This document shows, one piece after another, positions 46,097 through 49,924 of a DNA stretch of 64,000 nt (the first letter of the stretch is position 1; every line of letters starts with the position of its first letter). Source of the stretch: Acidobacteriota bacterium. Its GTDB lineage: Bacteria; Acidobacteriota; UBA6911; RPQK01; CBDAPI01. Position numbers and translations under genes: made by a program. The notes under the pieces are model-generated. The model had not been told where the DNA came from, did not search any database, and saw nothing but the letters and a program-made list of their open reading frames with translations. The stretch is from contig OZ252114.1 of the NCBI GenBank assembly GCA_965248635.1, positions 3,103,309 through 3,167,308 of the forward strand. Direction: 5' to 3'.

Positions 46097-46140
46097 GTGC
46101 AAAGCAAAAAGCCCCTGCAACCCAGGCGGGCTCCAGGGGC
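46097..46140 (-). terminator. rho-independent terminator of the 23S-5S operon
   Basis: On the minus strand the transcript reads GCCCCUG…CAGGGGC (30-nt hairpin) followed by UUUUUGCUUUG, directly after the 5S 3' end. Confidence 0.55.
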
Positions 46141-46148
46141 ATAAAGAT

Positions 46149-46262
46149 CCGGCAACGACCTACGTTCCCACATAGTCTCCCATGCAGTATCATCGGCGCT
46201 GGAGGACTTAACTTCTGTGTTCGGGATGGGAACAGGTGTGGCTCCTCCGCTAAAGTCACCGG
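46149..46262 (-). rRNA. rrf: 5S ribosomal RNA
   Basis: The reverse complement reads CCGGTGACTTTAGCGGAGGAGCCACACCTGTTCCCATCCCGAACACAGAAGTTAAG…GGGAACGTAGGTCGTTGCCGG, a canonical 5S. Confidence 0.85.
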
Positions 46263-46326
46263 AAACTGTTAAAGATCGATGTCGTCGGGCAAACACACCA
46301 GTGTTTTGTGCGACAAAATATTCTAG

Positions 46327-49289
46327 GTCAAGCCTCACGACCGATTAGTACAGGTCAGCTTCATCCGTTACCGGACTTCCACACCCTGCCTATCAACCTC
46401 GTAGTCTTCAAGGGGTCTTCAGGCTGGTAAACCAGCGGGAGATCTCATCTCGGGACGAGCTTCACGCTTAGATGCATTCAGCGTTTATCTCTTCCGTACT
46501 TAACTACCCAGCGGTGCTCCTGGCGGAACAACTGGAACATCAGGGGTACGTCCAACCCGGTCCTCTCGTACTAGGGTCAGCCTCCCTCAAATCTCCTACG
46601 CCCACAGCAGATAGGGACCGAACTGTCTCACGACGTTCTAAACCCAGCTCACGTACCGCTTTAATCGGCGAACAGCCGAACCCTTGGGACCTTCTTCAGC
46701 CCCAGGATGCGATGAGCCGACATCGAGGTGCCAAACCTTGGCGTCGATGTGAACTCTTGGCCAAGATAAGCCTGTTATCCCCGGCGTACCTTTTATCCGT
46801 TGAGCGATGGCCCTTCCATGCGGAACCACCGGATCACTAAGGCCGACTTTCGTCTCTGCTCGACTTGTCTGTCTCGCAGTCAAGCGGGCTTATGCCTTTA
46901 CACTCTACGGCTGGTTTCCAATCAGCCTGAGCCCACCTTTGCGCGCCTCCGTTACCTTTTAGGAGGCGACCGCCCCAGTCAAACTACCCGCCTAACTCTG
47001 TTCCTCTCCCCGGTTCAGGGGACAAGGTTAGATGCTCAATACAAGAAGGGTGGTATCTCACCATTGGCTCCACCAAGCCTGACGGCCTGGTTTCAAAGCC
47101 TCCCACCTATCCTGCACATCCTGCACCGGACACCAAAGCTAAGGTGTAGTAAAGGTGCACGGGGTCTTTCCGTCTTGCTGCGGGCAACCGGCATCTTCAC
47201 CGGTACTACAAATTCGCTGAGTCTCTTGTCAAGACAGCGCCCAGATCGTTACGCCATTCGTGCAGGTCGGAACTTACCCGACAAGGAATTTCGCTACCTT
47301 AGGACCGTTATAGTTACGGCCGCCGTTCACCGGGGCTTCAATTCAGAGCTTCGCACCGAAGCGCTAACCCCTCCTTTTAACCTTCCGGCACCGGGCAGGC
47401 GTCAGACCCTATACGTCGTTTTGTTGACTTAGCAGAGTCCTGTGTTTTTAGTAAACAGTCGCCTGGGCCATTTCTCTGCAACCTCCTTCAGCTCAGCCAG
47501 CTAGTGACATCACCTAATGAAGGCCCACCTTCTCCCGAAGTTACGGTGGAATTTTGCCGAGTTCCTTAACAAGAGTTCTCTCAAGCGCCTTGGGATACTC
47601 TCCCCGTCTACCTGTGTCGGTTTGCGGTACGGCCACCTTCATTCTCGCTAGAGGCTTTTCTTGGCAGTGCGGAATCAACGAGTTACCCGTCAGATCTCTC
47701 CTCGGGGCCCTTACACGCCTCAGTAATAGCTCCACGGATTTGCCTATGGAGCCTACTTACACGCTTCGACCGAGACAACCAATGCCCGGCTCGTCTATCC
47801 CTCTGCGTCCCCCCATCGCTAATAACGAATTACGGTGGTACAGGAATATTCGCCTGTTTTCCATCGACTACGCCTTTCGACCTCGCCTTAGGAGCCGACT
47901 AACCCTGGGCGGATGAACCTTCCCCAGGAAACCTTAGACTTACGGCGAACTTGATTTTCACAAGTTTTATCGCTACTTATGCCGGCAGAGTCTCTTGCCT
48001 GCGCTCCAGTTTACCTTTCGGTTCACCTTCACGGCCCAGGCAATGCTCCCCTACCGCACCCAAAACCCGAAGGTTCTGGATACCCGCAGCTTCGGTAATG
48101 TGCTTGAGCCCCGTTACATTATCGGCACAGAGCCGCTTGACCAGTGAGCTGTTACGCTTTCTTTCAAGGATGGCTGCTTCTAAGCCAACCTCCTGGTTGT
48201 CTGTGCGTCTCCACATCCTTTCCCACTTAGCACACATTTAGGGACCTTAGCTGGCGGTCTGGGCTGTTTCCCTCTCGACTATGGAGCTTAGCCCCCACAG
48301 TCTGACTCCCGGGCTGTCGTTTCCGGCATTCGGAGTTTGGTTGGATTCGGTAAGCGGTGAAGCCCCCTAGTCCATCCAGTGCTCTACCTCCGGAACGAAT
48401 CACCCGAGGCTAGCCCTAAAGCTATTTCGGGGAGAACGAGCTATAACTGAGTTTGATTGGCCTTTCACCCCTATCCTCAGCTCATCCAAGCCGTTTTCAA
48501 CCGACACTGGTTCGGGCCTCCAACAGGTGTTACCCTGCCTTCACCCTGGCCAAGGATAGATCACTCAGATTCGCGTTTATTCCAGACAACTAGACGCCCT
48601 GTTCAGACTCGGTTTCCCTTCGGCTCCTCTTTATCTTCAGATTAACCTCGCTGCCTAGAATAACTAGCCGGCTCATTATGCAAAAGGCACGCCGTCACCC
48701 CTCATGGAGGCTCCGACTGCTTGTAAGTAGACGGTTTCAGGTACTTTTAACTCTCCTCGCAGGAGTACTTTTCACCTTTCCCTCACGGTACTAGTTCACT
48801 ATCGGTCGCAAAGGAGTATTTAGCCTTGGGAGATGGTCCTCCCAGCTTCCCACAGGATTTCTCGTGTCCCGTGGTACTCGGGAATCCAAGCCCACTGCAT
48901 TCCCTTTTGTCTACAGGTCTATTACCTTCTATGGATCGACTTTCCAGCACGATTCGACTAGGTTCAGCAGTCTTTTGCCTGGTCCCACAACCCCCGTCCA
49001 GCCGTAGCCGGGCGGGTTTGGGCTGTTTCCGTTTCGCTCGCCGCTACTCAGGAAATCGCGATTGCTTTCTCTTCCTTCGGGTACTGAGATGGTTCACTTC
49101 CCCGAGTTTGCTTCCATCACCTATGAATTCAGTGATGGATGACTCCGCTTTACCGGAGCCGGGTTCCCCCATTCGGACATCCCCGGATCAAAGCTCGCTT
49201 GCAGCTCCCCGAGGCTTATCGCAGCTTGCCACGTCCTTCATCGCCTCTTTGCGCCTAGGCATCCACCGTCTACCCTTAGTAGCTTGACC
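46327..49289 (-). rRNA. rrl: 23S ribosomal RNA
   Basis: Reverse-complement 5' end GGTCAAGCTACTAAGGGTAGACGGTGGATGCCTAGGCGC…GAGGCGATGAAGGACG. The 3' end …GCTGAATGCATCTAAGCGTGAAGC…GTACTAATCGGTCGTGAGGCTTGACC matches universal 23S termini. Confidence 0.9.
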
Positions 49290-49426
49290 TAGAATATTTT
49301 GGCGCACAGTCGCACCAAAATATTCTTGTTGCCATGTTACTTGTGGTTTGCCCTTCTAAATTACAATCAAATTGTCAAAGATCTGCGTGCCCTAGAAGCA
49401 CAACTTGTCCAAAAGGACAAACTACA

Positions 49427-49455
49427 ATCTTAAGTAAGTTCTGTGCCCCTGTCAA
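49427..49455 (-). promoter_or_regulatory. rrn P2 promoter candidate (TTGACA - 17 bp - TAAGAT)
   Basis: Minus-strand reading: TTGACAGGGGCACAGAACTTACTTAAGAT, about 135 nt upstream of the mature 23S 5' end. Confidence 0.45.
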
Positions 49456-49650
49456 CTCCAAACAAACAACTTCGCCGGGGGCCCAGCCTGGCTCCGCAGG
49501 CCCTCGAAAACACCGGCTGCACCACACCTCTCAGCATGACTGGGAGTGCGGGGTACTGGGAGTGCGGGGTCGGCCAGGAGAAGGGGTGGTGGACGCGACA
49601 AGTCAGGGGTTGGGGGAGGGCGCGCCCACCGTTCTTGAACAAACAAAGAA

Positions 49651-49680
49651 ATTATAGCGAAAAGCAACAAATAAAGGCAA
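49651..49680 (-). promoter_or_regulatory. rrn P1 promoter candidate (TTGCCT - 18 bp - TATAAT) in an AT-rich UP-like context
   Basis: Minus-strand reading: TTGCCTTTATTTGTTGCTTTTCGCTATAAT, preceded by an A/T-rich stretch. Confidence 0.4.
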
Positions 49681-49924
49681 ATAAAACGGGATATTTTTGG
49701 GCAAAGCCCCCTAGAACACCTGGCGGCCTGCTCCGGCCATACTCTCATTCTCCCAATTCGGAGAAAAGTCACTTTGGGCGACTTCAAGAAACGTTCCAGA
49801 GTTCCAAGGGCCCAGGTTGACGGCCTTCACCAGGGCGGCAACGAGCAAGGAGCCCGGCATCAGGAAACTCTGCACGGAATTCGACGTGGAACGCGAACCT
49901 CGGAGGACGGAACTCCTTGAAAGG

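What the first reader, a model, noticed from the sequence alone, without database searches (positions are those of the whole stretch)
46097..49700. 23S-5S rRNA operon not linked to a 16S gene
On the minus strand the order is mutM, then about 635 bp of non-coding DNA, then 23S, 5S, a terminator, then MOSC. No 16S or spacer tRNAs are present. The non-coding gap holds two sigma70-like promoters: TTGCCT-18-TATAAT at about 49651-49680 and TTGACA-17-TAAGAT at about 49427-49455. The leader …GCGCCAAAATATTCTA|GGTCAAGC and trailer GCTTGACC|TAGAATATTTTGTCGC form the classic RNase III processing stem around 23S. So 23S-5S is an independent transcription unit, the unlinked rRNA arrangement seen in a minority of bacterial lineages. 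A 16-bp direct duplication (actgggagtgcggggt x2, about 49545-49576) sits upstream of P2.
Basis: seen in the sequence. Interest (0 to 1): 0.5.

Follow-up and report, generated by a model that had tools for sequence, protein, structure and literature searches.

The report
Stand-alone 23S-5S rRNA operon
This is a complete 23S-5S ribosomal RNA operon with its own promoters, anti-termination signal, processing stem and terminator but no 16S gene nearby, in an uncultured Acidobacteriota genome; the arrangement is real and inherited, and it is already known to be common in environmental bacteria.

Summary
The core observation holds. Rfam finds a full-length 23S (46324-49289, minus) and 5S (46147-46263, minus). 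It finds no 16S anywhere in the 64 kb and no spacer tRNA.

- **Checked details:** both promoter-like sites, the leader/trailer stem and the 16-nt duplication are in the sequence.
- **Errors:** the duplication lies at 49539-49570, six bases off. The downstream gene is not MOSC; its C-terminal half resembles CoA-transferase subunit B.
- **Not a mis-assembly:** the order mutM, leader, 23S, 5S recurs in at least eight independent assemblies of relatives (23S 94-99% identical), some on megabase contigs.
- **Conservation supports function:**
  - P2 is conserved in all seven leaders aligned and P1 in six.
  - The 27-bp processing stem shows three compensatory changes.
  - The intrinsic terminator is conserved.
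- **Origin:** a more distant relative (23S about 85% identical) has a linked 16S-ITS-23S operon with the same boxA. The proximal leader therefore looks like a former spacer.
- **Lineage:** Acidobacteriota, judged from RecA.

Unlinked rRNA genes are documented in 37 of 71 phyla, including Acidobacteria Subgroup 2. This is an ordinary new instance. I could not locate the 16S gene or count rrn copies.

The parts
46324..49289 (-). 23S rRNA gene, full length, no insertion
   Evidence: Rfam RF02541, 2938 bits, model 1-2925. It is 93.7-99.0% identical to the 23S of relatives whose leaders are only 71-82% identical.
46147..46263 (-). 5S rRNA gene
   Evidence: Rfam RF00001, 105.1 bits.
46264..46323 (-). 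60-nt 23S-5S spacer. It carries the 3' strand of the processing stem, a small hairpin, and a second boxA-like GATCTTTAACA (46267-46277) just before 5S. It holds no tRNA.
   Evidence: Sequence, ARAGORN, and comparison with relatives.
46100..46140 (-). Intrinsic terminator: a 12-bp interrupted GC-rich stem followed by UUUUUGCUUUG
   Evidence: RNAfold -28.4 kcal/mol. A hairpin plus U-tract sits at the same place in L081, L084, L085, L086, L090 and L143, with different inner-stem sequences.
49651..49680 (-). P1, the distal sigma70-type promoter: TTGCCT-18-TATAAT
   Evidence: Conserved as TTGCNT / TATAMT in six of the seven aligned leaders. No clear counterpart in L090 or L125.
49586..49642 (-). 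Invariant ~55-nt block just downstream of P1. It forms a 10-bp stem (GGTGGGCGCG / CGCGYCCACC) around a 23-nt C-rich loop and contains the palindrome GGGCGCGCCC. Function unknown.
   Evidence: Alignment A1 and fold. One copy per locus in L081-L089. No exact copies in metagenome contigs. No Rfam match.
49539..49570 (-). 16-nt perfect tandem duplication (+ strand ACTGGGAGTGCGGGGT x2) in the variable spacer between P1 and P2
   Evidence: Relatives carry a single diverged copy (A1 columns 388-430). It is therefore a recent event specific to this genome.
49427..49455 (-). P2, the proximal sigma70-type promoter: TTGACA-17-TAAGAT
   Evidence: The -35 hexamer is invariant in all seven leaders, the -10 keeps TAnnAT, and the spacer varies in sequence (17-18 nt). 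L125 has TTGACA-17-TAAAAT at the equivalent place.
49387..49420 (-). Two small leader hairpins upstream of boxA, in the boxB-like position: TTGTCCTTTTGGACAA and GTGCTTCTAGGGCAC
   Evidence: RNAalifold consensus. Pairs are mostly kept. There are some one-sided changes and one two-sided change.
49371..49383 (-). boxA-type anti-termination motif GATCTTTGACAAT
   Evidence: Near-invariant in all leaders: one C>A change in L090. It matches 9 of 11 positions of the gamma-proteobacterial consensus GYTCTTTAANA (PMC5725501). In 33 of 120 metagenome contigs holding the exact 16-mer GATCTTTGACAATTTG, a 16S (8) or 23S (25) gene starts within 700 nt downstream on the same strand.
49336..49353 (-). Conserved motif GGGCAAACCACAAGTAAC between boxA and the processing stem, in the boxC-like position
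   Evidence: Also recognisable in the ITS of the linked relative L202.
49291..49326 (-). Local leader hairpin of 15 bp with a 6-nt loop. Its 3' arm is the same strand that pairs with the trailer.
   Evidence: the repeat finder I3 and RNAfold -21 to -23 kcal/mol. Kept in all relatives, with U-A to C-G changes in L088 and L125.
49282..49308 (-). 5' strand of the long-range processing stem: leader plus the first 8 nt of 23S
   Evidence: I1. 27 pairs, 100% paired in 4 distinct sequences, with 3 compensatory pairs.
46307..46333 (-). 3' strand of the long-range processing stem: the last bases of 23S plus the trailer
49925..50824 (-). Flank: mutM (formamidopyrimidine-DNA glycosylase), same strand, directly upstream
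   Evidence: Pfam PF01149, PF06831, PF06827. The synteny with 23S is conserved.
45478..46011 (-). Flank: 177-aa ORF downstream. Its C-terminal half resembles CoA-transferase subunit B. It is not MOSC.
   Evidence: Conserved as a 174-aa ORF in relatives.

Best explanation
This is a functional, self-contained 23S-5S rRNA transcription unit in an uncultured Acidobacteriota genome, physically unlinked from the 16S gene.

The proposed mechanism runs as follows:
1. Transcription starts at two tandem sigma70-type promoters, P1 (start near 49644) and P2 (start near 49420).
2. The nascent leader presents small hairpins and a boxA motif. These load the Nus-factor anti-termination complex, so RNA polymerase reads through about 3.2 kb of untranslated, structured RNA.
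3. A leader strand first folds into a local hairpin. Once the trailer is made, it pairs with the trailer instead. This forms a 27-bp helix that extends 23S helix 1 and is the expected substrate for RNase III or an equivalent double-strand RNase, releasing pre-23S.
4. 5S follows after a 60-nt spacer.
5. An intrinsic terminator ends the transcript before the next gene.

The proximal leader, from boxA to the stem, descends from the 16S-23S spacer of a formerly linked operon. The promoters lie upstream of that remnant.

- **Shown here:** gene content, absence of 16S, conserved synteny, conserved motifs, and covariation in the stem and terminator.
- **Inferred:** promoter activity, Nus loading, the nuclease involved, and the order of folding.
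For: - Full-length 23S and 5S, and no 16S in 64 kb. No rRNA or tRNA remnant in the gap at E <= 1.
- The same mutM-leader-23S-5S-ORF order occurs in L081-L090. These come from different samples and assemblies, with contigs up to 5.68 Mb.
- 23S is 94-99% identical across relatives while the leaders are only 71-82% identical. That indicates purifying selection on the rRNA.
- P2 hexamers are invariant while its spacer varies. P1 is conserved in 6 of 7 leaders. boxA is nearly invariant.
- The boxA 16-mer is strongly associated with rRNA gene starts in unrelated metagenome contigs, 33 of 120. NusB/E is known to bind boxA upstream of both 16S and 23S (PMC5725501).
- The processing stem has 27 pairs, all paired in every sequence, with 3 compensatory pairs. 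Only 4 of 500 shuffles do as well, and slid controls pair at 31-44%.
- The terminator hairpin plus U-tract is conserved, with a changed inner stem.
- The linked relative L202 has 16S, a 229-nt ITS, then 23S. It carries the same boxA and the downstream GGGCAA..ACCACAAGTA motif 85 nt before 23S.
- The arrangement is documented as widespread and phylogenetically conserved (bioRxiv 10.1101/705046).
Against: - There are no expression data. Promoters are consensus matches whose count is not above chance.
- mutM lies directly upstream on the same strand, and this genome has no clear terminator between them. Some read-through from mutM cannot be excluded.
- The 16S gene or genes and the total rrn copy number could not be examined, so a genome with an additional linked operon ('mixed') is not excluded.
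- No RNase III gene lies in the 64 kb. That is uninformative for the whole genome, but genomes with unlinked rRNA genes lack RNase III more often.
- All three compensatory pairs in the stem come from one sequence (L090).
Confidence: 0.85

Rival explanations
1. Mixed genome. This 23S-5S unit is an extra or orphan copy, and the same genome also has one or more canonical linked 16S-23S-5S operons.
For: The whole assembly could not be searched. Brewer et al. report 0.62% of complete genomes as mixed. A related lineage (L202) still has a linked operon.
Against: The locus is syntenic and under strong purifying selection across a clade whose MutM has diverged to 65% identity. That fits a principal rRNA locus better than a redundant copy. 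Mixed genomes are about six times rarer than exclusively unlinked ones (0.62% against 3.65%).
Confidence: 0.1
2. Assembly artefact. A collapsed or chimeric join around 49300-49900 removed a 16S gene and spacer that really precede the 23S.
For: rRNA repeats are classic break points for assemblers. One short-read relative (L089) shows an apparently chimeric 23S, 79-82% identical to the window's where its sister contig L088 is 95.5% identical.
Against: The identical junction is recovered in at least eight independent assemblies from different samples, including contigs of 0.8-5.7 Mb. Homology is continuous from mutM through the leader into 23S. The leader carries its own conserved promoters, which a spacer would not need.
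Confidence: 0.02
3. Not independently transcribed. The rRNA is made mainly by read-through from mutM or further upstream, and the P1/P2 hexamers are fortuitous.
For: mutM is on the same strand 635 bp upstream, and this genome has no convincing terminator after it. The promoter-like count equals the chance expectation.
Against: A DNA-repair gene promoter could not supply rRNA-level transcription. L085 and L086 have a clear hairpin plus T-run directly after mutM yet keep P1 and P2. The P2 -35 and -10 positions are invariant while the 17-18-nt spacer between them is free to vary, which is a promoter footprint. The more distant L125 has no mutM upstream but has a TTGACA-17-TAAAAT promoter at the same distance from boxA.
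Confidence: 0.03

Closest known systems
Unlinked rRNA genes as surveyed by Brewer et al. (bioRxiv 10.1101/705046; later ISME J), including Acidobacteria Subgroup 2, Planctomycetes, Deinococcus-Thermus and Chloroflexi
   Same: 16S and 23S are more than 1500 bp apart, 23S stays with 5S, the organism is free-living and environmental, and the trait is conserved within a clade.
   Different: That survey reports the trait in Acidobacteria Subgroup 2 from long reads only. I could assign this clade no further than phylum (RecA 77-80% identical to proteins named Acidobacteriota). Whether it is Subgroup 2 or another class is unknown.
Thermus thermophilus 23S-5S operon, separate from the 16S gene (from my own knowledge, not checked here)
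   Same: A stand-alone 23S-5S unit with its own promoter and leader in a free-living bacterium.
   Different: As I recall, the Thermus operon carries a tRNA after 5S. Here 5S is followed directly by a terminator.
Escherichia coli rrn operon control region: tandem P1-P2, boxB-boxA-boxC, and RNase III stems around each large rRNA
   Same: Two tandem promoters, then hairpins, boxA and a conserved downstream motif, then a long leader-trailer helix enclosing the rRNA. BoxA elements precede both 16S and 23S in E. coli (PMC5725501).
   Different: Here the whole control region sits in front of 23S instead of 16S. The P1 and P2 -35 starts are 225 bp apart; from my own knowledge the E. coli spacing is about 120 bp. 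This boxA is GATCTTTGACA against the consensus GYTCTTTAANA, a 9 of 11 match.
Linked 16S-ITS-23S operon of the related environmental lineage L202/L143
   Same: 23S is 85-87% identical. It has the same boxA 16-mer 85 nt before 23S and a similar GGGCAA..ACCACAAGTA motif.
   Different: In L202 the 16S ends 229 nt before 23S, with no promoter-like region and no tRNA in between. In the window that position is occupied by P2, P1 and mutM.

Membership tests
Unlinked rRNA gene arrangement (Brewer et al. criterion) | Intact 23S rRNA gene | tested here: met
   RF02541 full length, 2938 bits.
Unlinked rRNA gene arrangement (Brewer et al. criterion) | No 16S within 1500 bp upstream of the 23S | tested here: met
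   No SSU rRNA hit in the whole window, which covers 14.7 kb upstream and 46 kb downstream. No fragment at E <= 1 in 45900-50000. The criterion is quoted.
Unlinked rRNA gene arrangement (Brewer et al. criterion) | The arrangement is real rather than an assembly artefact, and is inherited within a clade | tested here: met
   The same junction occurs in L081-L090.
Unlinked rRNA gene arrangement (Brewer et al. criterion) | A 16S gene exists elsewhere in the same genome, and no linked copy exists (exclusively unlinked rather than mixed) | not testable with these tools
   Only the 64-kb window and +/-10 kb of relatives are readable.
Nus-factor / boxA anti-termination leader of rrn operons | A boxA sequence in the transcribed leader between the promoter and the rRNA gene | tested here: met
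   GATCTTTGACAAT lies at 49383-49371, 44 nt after the P2 -10 and 82 nt before 23S. It is near-invariant and matches 9 of 11 positions of GYTCTTTAANA. The exact 16-mer precedes rRNA genes in 33 of 120 contigs.
Nus-factor / boxA anti-termination leader of rrn operons | A boxB-like hairpin upstream of boxA and a conserved element downstream of it | tested here: inconclusive
   Two small hairpins and a conserved GGGCAAACCACAAGTAAC are present. Covariation is slight, and these elements have no sequence consensus to test against.
Nus-factor / boxA anti-termination leader of rrn operons | NusB/NusE binding and Rho-resistant elongation | not testable with these tools
   This needs binding or transcription assays.
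RNase III-type processing stem around 23S | A long helix between the 5' leader and the 3' trailer that extends 23S helix 1 | tested here: met
   27 pairs, cofold energy -44 to -51 kcal/mol.
RNase III-type processing stem around 23S | The helix is maintained by compensatory change | tested here: met
   3 pairs changed on both sides and 1 wobble change, with 100% of cells paired. All compensatory changes come from one sequence (L090).
RNase III-type processing stem around 23S | RNase III encoded in the genome and cleaving the stem | not testable with these tools
The rest of the genome is not visible.
Sigma70-type tandem rRNA promoters | -35 and -10 hexamers at 16-18 nt spacing | tested here: met
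   P1 and P2 each match 10 of 12 positions. The count in the region does not exceed shuffles (3 against 2.2).
Sigma70-type tandem rRNA promoters | Hexamers conserved in relatives while the spacer drifts | tested here: met
   P2 meets this in 7 of 7 leaders and in L125. P1 is conserved in 6 of 7, but its spacer is conserved too, so that footprint says less.
Sigma70-type tandem rRNA promoters | Mapped transcription start sites | not testable with these tools
   No RNA data are available.
   No MOSC hit at E <= 1 for any ORF in 44954-46338 on either strand. The best matches are CoA-transferase subunit B.

The most novel reading that the evidence does not exclude
The leader may carry two regulatory RNA devices that have not been described for 23S operons.

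- **A 'placeholder' hairpin (49291-49326).** It would sequester the 5' strand of the processing stem during the roughly 3 kb of transcription before the trailer exists, and then be displaced by the more stable long-range helix. It is maintained by compensatory changes even in a distant relative (L125).
- **A clade-specific, invariant 55-nt element right after P1.** It has a C-rich CCUCC-containing loop and a GGGCGCGCCC palindrome. It could be an operator, an attenuator or a small RNA that tunes 23S-5S output relative to the separately transcribed 16S.

Either one would be a concrete handle on how organisms with split rRNA genes balance the two subunits.
Probability: 0.2. Interest if true: 0.4.

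Novelty: new member of a known kind. Interest (0 to 1): 0.15.

Why it matters
On its own it matters little. Unlinked 16S and 23S-5S genes are a documented and common arrangement in environmental bacteria, and this locus is a clean, well-formed example in an uncultured Acidobacteriota clade.

Its practical value is twofold:
- **For methods.** Approaches that amplify or bin on a contiguous 16S-ITS-23S operon will miss this clade.
- **As a comparison set.** The unlinked clade, a more distant unlinked relative and a linked relative share the same boxA. Together they show how a former spacer was converted into a promoter-bearing leader. That could be used to study how the stoichiometry of the two ribosomal subunits is kept when their rRNAs are transcribed separately.

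Tried and rejected
- **Genome-contig scan with MutM.** The peptide patterns were too generic.
- **Exact-protein look-ups.** Look-ups of the window's MutM, and of P0130 (a protein that is 100% identical to the window's RecA), returned nothing. I could not retrieve the source record or its name.
- **Cluster look-up for taxon names.** No names were returned. The lineage rests on RecA homologues named Acidobacteriota at 77-80% identity.
- **Metagenome scan with the 37-nt P1-proximal block.** I hoped to find the same element in front of a 16S gene. There were no hits.
- **Metagenome scan with the boxA 16-mer.** It confirmed the boxA-rRNA association but did not yield the 16S of this lineage. The solitary 16S contig L155 belongs to another phylum; its 16S is 76% identical to that of L202.
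- **The TTGACA at 49378 as a third promoter.** Rejected. No -10 follows at 16-18 nt, and it is the core of boxA.
- **The terminator-like site at 49487-49474 between P1 and P2.** Rejected as an attenuator. It is a weak 5-bp stem and is not conserved.
- **The P1-proximal hairpin as an intrinsic terminator.** Unlikely. The pyrimidine tract is not adjacent to the stem in most relatives.
- **A c-di-GMP-II-GAG hit inside 23S.** It scores 34.2 bits against a gathering score of 40 and is chance.
- **The three mechanical ORFs inside the 635-bp gap.** Rejected as genes. None is called in relatives, and the alignment has indels that are not multiples of three.
- **Literature searches for unlinked rRNA in Acidobacteria beyond Brewer et al..** Nothing was found.

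
Full report
**1. What is in the sequence**

Rfam at gathering thresholds finds three RNA genes in the 64-kb window. They are a full-length bacterial 23S rRNA at 46324-49289 (minus strand; model positions 1-2925; 2938 bits), a 5S rRNA at 46147-46263 (minus strand), and a tRNA at 51053-51124 (plus strand). No small-subunit rRNA is found. ARAGORN identifies the tRNA as tRNA-Gln(ttg) and finds no other tRNA. A more permissive Rfam scan of 45900-50000 (E <= 1) finds no 16S fragment and no tRNA remnant in the flanks.

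The ORF at 49925-50824 (minus) has the three Fpg/MutM Pfam domains. Its stop codon lies 635 bp upstream of the 23S start.

**2.

- Both promoter-like sites are exactly where stated: TTGCCT-18-TATAAT at 49680..49651 and TTGACA-17-TAAGAT at 49455..49427.
- The consensus scan finds 3 such sites in 5.5 kb, against 2.2 +/- 1.7 in shuffles. The hexamers alone are not evidence.
- The leader/trailer complementarity is real: 27 nt, 96% complementary, at 49282-49308 and 46307-46333.
- The 16-nt perfect tandem duplication exists but lies at 49539-49570, six bases from the stated position.
- The terminator is a 12-bp interrupted stem followed by UUUUUGCUUUG at 46140-46100. The simple scan missed it because of how it defines a loop.
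- The 'MOSC' label for the next gene is wrong. No ORF on either strand between 44954 and 46338 matches MOSC, even at E <= 1.
- The 177-aa ORF at 45478-46011 matches the C-terminal ~85 residues of 3-oxoacid CoA-transferase subunit B. The matches are PDB 9csc_B at E = 2.4e-14, and TIGR02428 at E = 1.5e-22 and 80 bits, below that model's cut-off of 243.55 bits.

**3. Is it an assembly artefact?**

MutM homologues 92-65% identical to the window's were traced to their contigs.

- In L081-L091, mutM is followed by a stretch of about 3.6-3.8 kb with no real gene. Where the contig continues, a 174-aa ORF comes next in most loci.
- Rfam confirms 23S and 5S in L081, L084 and L085, a 23S cut off by the contig end in L083, and no 16S within the 10-kb flanks read in any of the four.
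- BLAST extends this to L082, L086, L087, L088 and L090.
- These loci come from different samples and assemblies. Several sit on contigs of 0.8 to 5.7 Mb.
- Sequence homology runs without a break from mutM through the leader into 23S. The junction is therefore genuine and inherited.
- MutM homologues at about 60% identity (L092, L093) no longer have this neighbourhood.
- Within the clade, 23S is 93.7-99.0% identical while the leader is only 71-82% identical. That is the pattern expected of a functional rRNA gene.

**4. Anatomy of the leader from comparison** (alignment A1; consensus fold)

Reading 5' to 3' on the minus strand:

- **(a) P1.** Conserved as TTGCNT / TATAMT in six of seven leaders.
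- **(b) An invariant block of about 55 nt (49642-49586).** It forms a 10-bp stem around a 23-nt C-rich loop and contains the palindrome GGGCGCGCCC.
- **(c) A poorly conserved spacer.** It holds the 16-nt duplication. Relatives have one diverged copy, so the duplication is recent, specific to this genome and probably neutral.
- **(d) P2.** Its TTGACA is invariant in all seven sequences, its -10 keeps TAnnAT, and the 17-18-nt spacer differs freely. This is a typical promoter footprint.
- **(e) Two small hairpins (49420-49387).**
- **(f) GATCTTTGACAAT (49383-49371).** It is identical in six of the seven leaders; L090 has one C>A change.
- **(g) GGGCAAACCACAAGTAAC (49353-49336).**
- **(h) A local hairpin (49326-49291).**
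- **(i) The 23S 5' end.**

**5. The boxA motif**

Element (f) matches 9 of 11 positions of the boxA consensus GYTCTTTAANA derived for gamma-proteobacteria. NusB/E is known to bind boxA in nascent rRNA upstream of both the 16S and the 23S genes (PMC5725501). The consensus is known to drift with phylogenetic distance (PMC7665894).

As an empirical test I scanned the metagenome collection for the exact 16-mer GATCTTTGACAATTTG.

| Result among the 120 contigs returned | Contigs |
|---|---|
| 16S starts within 700 nt downstream, same strand | 8 |
| 23S starts within 700 nt downstream, same strand | 25 |
| Contig ends too soon to tell | 10 |

Three of the 25 contigs with a 23S downstream have a 16S upstream, so there the motif sits in the spacer of a linked operon. 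At least seven have 1.7-8.5 kb upstream with none of the seven universal 16S motifs I searched for, so they too are unlinked.

The TTGACA inside this motif is therefore the core of a boxA, not a third promoter. Stand-alone 23S genes with their own boxA are common in environmental DNA.

**6. Processing stem and local hairpin**

The long-range helix has 27 base pairs, including the 8 bp of 23S helix 1, with one conserved C/U mismatch.

- On four distinct sequences, all 108 cells are standard pairs.
- Three pairs are changed on both sides and one by a wobble. Only 4 of 500 shuffles do as well, and slid controls pair at 31-44%.
- All three compensatory changes come from the marine relative L090, so this amounts to one independent lineage of evidence.

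The same leader strand also forms a local 15-bp hairpin with sequence just upstream. The local fold is -11 to -23 kcal/mol, against -44 to -51 kcal/mol for the long-range duplex. The hairpin is present in every relative. It shows U-A to C-G changes in L088 and L125. In L125 both arms are largely re-coded (AGAATTTCTTGT / ACAAGAAATTCT).

The two structures exclude each other. My reading is that the hairpin forms first during transcription and is replaced when the trailer appears about 3 kb later. That is an inference.

**7. Terminator**

A GC-rich hairpin followed by a U-tract lies 6-20 nt after 5S in all relatives, including the distant L143. The inner stem sequences differ. The transcription unit thus ends before the next ORF.

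**8. Lineage and origin**

The window's RecA (54439-55554, minus) has named relatives only at 77-80% identity. All of them are labelled Acidobacteriota or Acidobacteria. The closer, unnamed relatives come from soil and marine metagenome assemblies.

- **L125** is a more distant relative; the first 121 nt of its 23S are 88% identical. It has no mutM and no 16S in the 3.8 kb upstream. It has a single TTGACA-17-TAAAAT promoter, a hairpin, the same boxA and the local hairpin.
- **L202** has a 23S about 85% identical. It shares its leader with L143, whose 23S is 86.7% identical. L202 is a linked operon: a complete 16S, a 229-nt spacer without tRNA, then 23S. The same boxA 16-mer lies 85 nt before its 23S, followed by a recognisable GGGCAA..ACCACAAGTA motif.

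The proximal ~100 nt of the window's leader is thus homologous to the 3' part of an internal spacer. The simplest history is that an ancestral linked operon was broken upstream of boxA and promoters then came to lie in front of the remnant.

**9. Comparison with what is known**

Brewer et al. define 'unlinked' as more than 1500 bp between 16S and 23S. Their main findings (bioRxiv 10.1101/705046):

- 3.65% of complete genomes are exclusively unlinked, and 0.62% are mixed.
- 37 of 71 phyla have at least one unlinked representative.
- Up to 41% of soil taxa are unlinked.
- All 27 long reads from Acidobacteria Subgroup 2 are unlinked.
- The trait carries a strong phylogenetic signal.

The locus meets every part of that definition that can be tested here. 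The control region resembles the classical E. coli rrn leader (tandem promoters, boxA, enclosing stem) moved in front of 23S. Nothing about the gene content, the signals or the lineage is unexpected.

**10. What could not be done**

- I could not find the 16S gene or genes of this genome, and I could not count its rrn copies.
- Exact-protein look-ups for the window's MutM, and for a protein 100% identical to its RecA, returned nothing.
- A scan for the P1-proximal block found no further copies.
- A mixed genome with an additional linked operon therefore remains possible; I put it at about 10%.
- Promoter use, Nus loading and the processing nuclease are all inferred from sequence.
- No RNase III homologue lies in the window. 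That says nothing about the rest of the genome.

**11. Verdict**

It is an ordinary example of a known and widespread arrangement. Two small features deserve a note rather than a claim: the conserved alternative hairpin at the 5' strand of the processing stem, and the invariant clade-specific element behind P1. Interest is low (0.15).

Noticed in passing
window 49291-49326 (-), and the equivalent positions in L081-L090 and L125: A local leader hairpin uses the same strand as the long-range 23S processing stem, so the two structures exclude each other. It is kept in all relatives, with compensatory changes (U-A to C-G in L088 and L125). In L125 both arms are largely re-coded.
   Followed up: partly
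window 49586-49642 (-); L081-L089, one copy each: An invariant ~55-nt block lies immediately after P1. It has a 10-bp stem, a 23-nt C-rich loop (CCCUCCCCCAACCCCUGACUUGU) and the perfect palindrome GGGCGCGCCC. It is absent from the marine relative L090 and from L125. It has no Rfam match and no exact copy in the metagenome collection.
   Followed up: partly
window 46267-46277 (-): A second boxA-like sequence, GATCTTTAACA, matches 10 of 11 positions of GYTCTTTAANA. It sits in the 23S-5S spacer directly before 5S. It is conserved in L081 and present as GATCTTTGAC in L085, but is not seen in L090.
   Followed up: no
L202 1-3881 (and L143): This environmental relative (23S 85-87% identical) has a linked 16S-229 nt-23S operon with no spacer tRNA. 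It carries the same boxA 16-mer 85 nt before 23S. It is the nearest linked outgroup found.
   Followed up: yes
L155 2848-4380 (-) and flanks: A solitary 16S gene from another phylum (16S 76% identical to that of L202). It has its own TTGACA-16-TAAAAT promoter, the same boxA 16-mer and its own terminator. No 23S or tRNA lies in the 2.8 kb downstream.
   Followed up: partly
window 45478-46011 (-): A 177-aa ORF whose C-terminal ~85 residues resemble CoA-transferase subunit B, while the N-terminal half matches nothing. It is conserved as a 174-aa ORF after the rRNA unit in relatives. It may be a truncated or diverged domain protein.
   Followed up: partly
L084 15628-16883; L085 15561-16805; L086/L087 ~16150-18900; L081/L082 downstream: Several relatives carry transposase genes (Transposase_mut, DDE_Tnp_1, rve/HTH_Tnp_1) inserted shortly downstream of the rRNA unit. 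The window has none there: the YbjQ, anti-sigma and ECF-sigma genes follow directly.
   Followed up: no
L089 2095-4968: L089 and L088 encode the identical MutM (P0015). The 23S of L089 is only 79-82% identical to the window's, while that of L088 is 95.5% identical. This is probably a chimeric short-read assembly inside the rRNA gene.
   Followed up: no
window 47044-47112 (-): A sub-threshold Rfam match to the c-di-GMP-II-GAG riboswitch lies inside 23S (34.2 bits against a gathering score of 40). I take it as chance.
   Followed up: no
window 43590-44141 (+), 52068-53528 (-): An ECF sigma factor that also matches the PF07638 (Sigma70_ECF) family, and a sulfatase, lie near the rRNA unit. Both are conserved in the relatives' neighbourhoods.
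   Followed up: no
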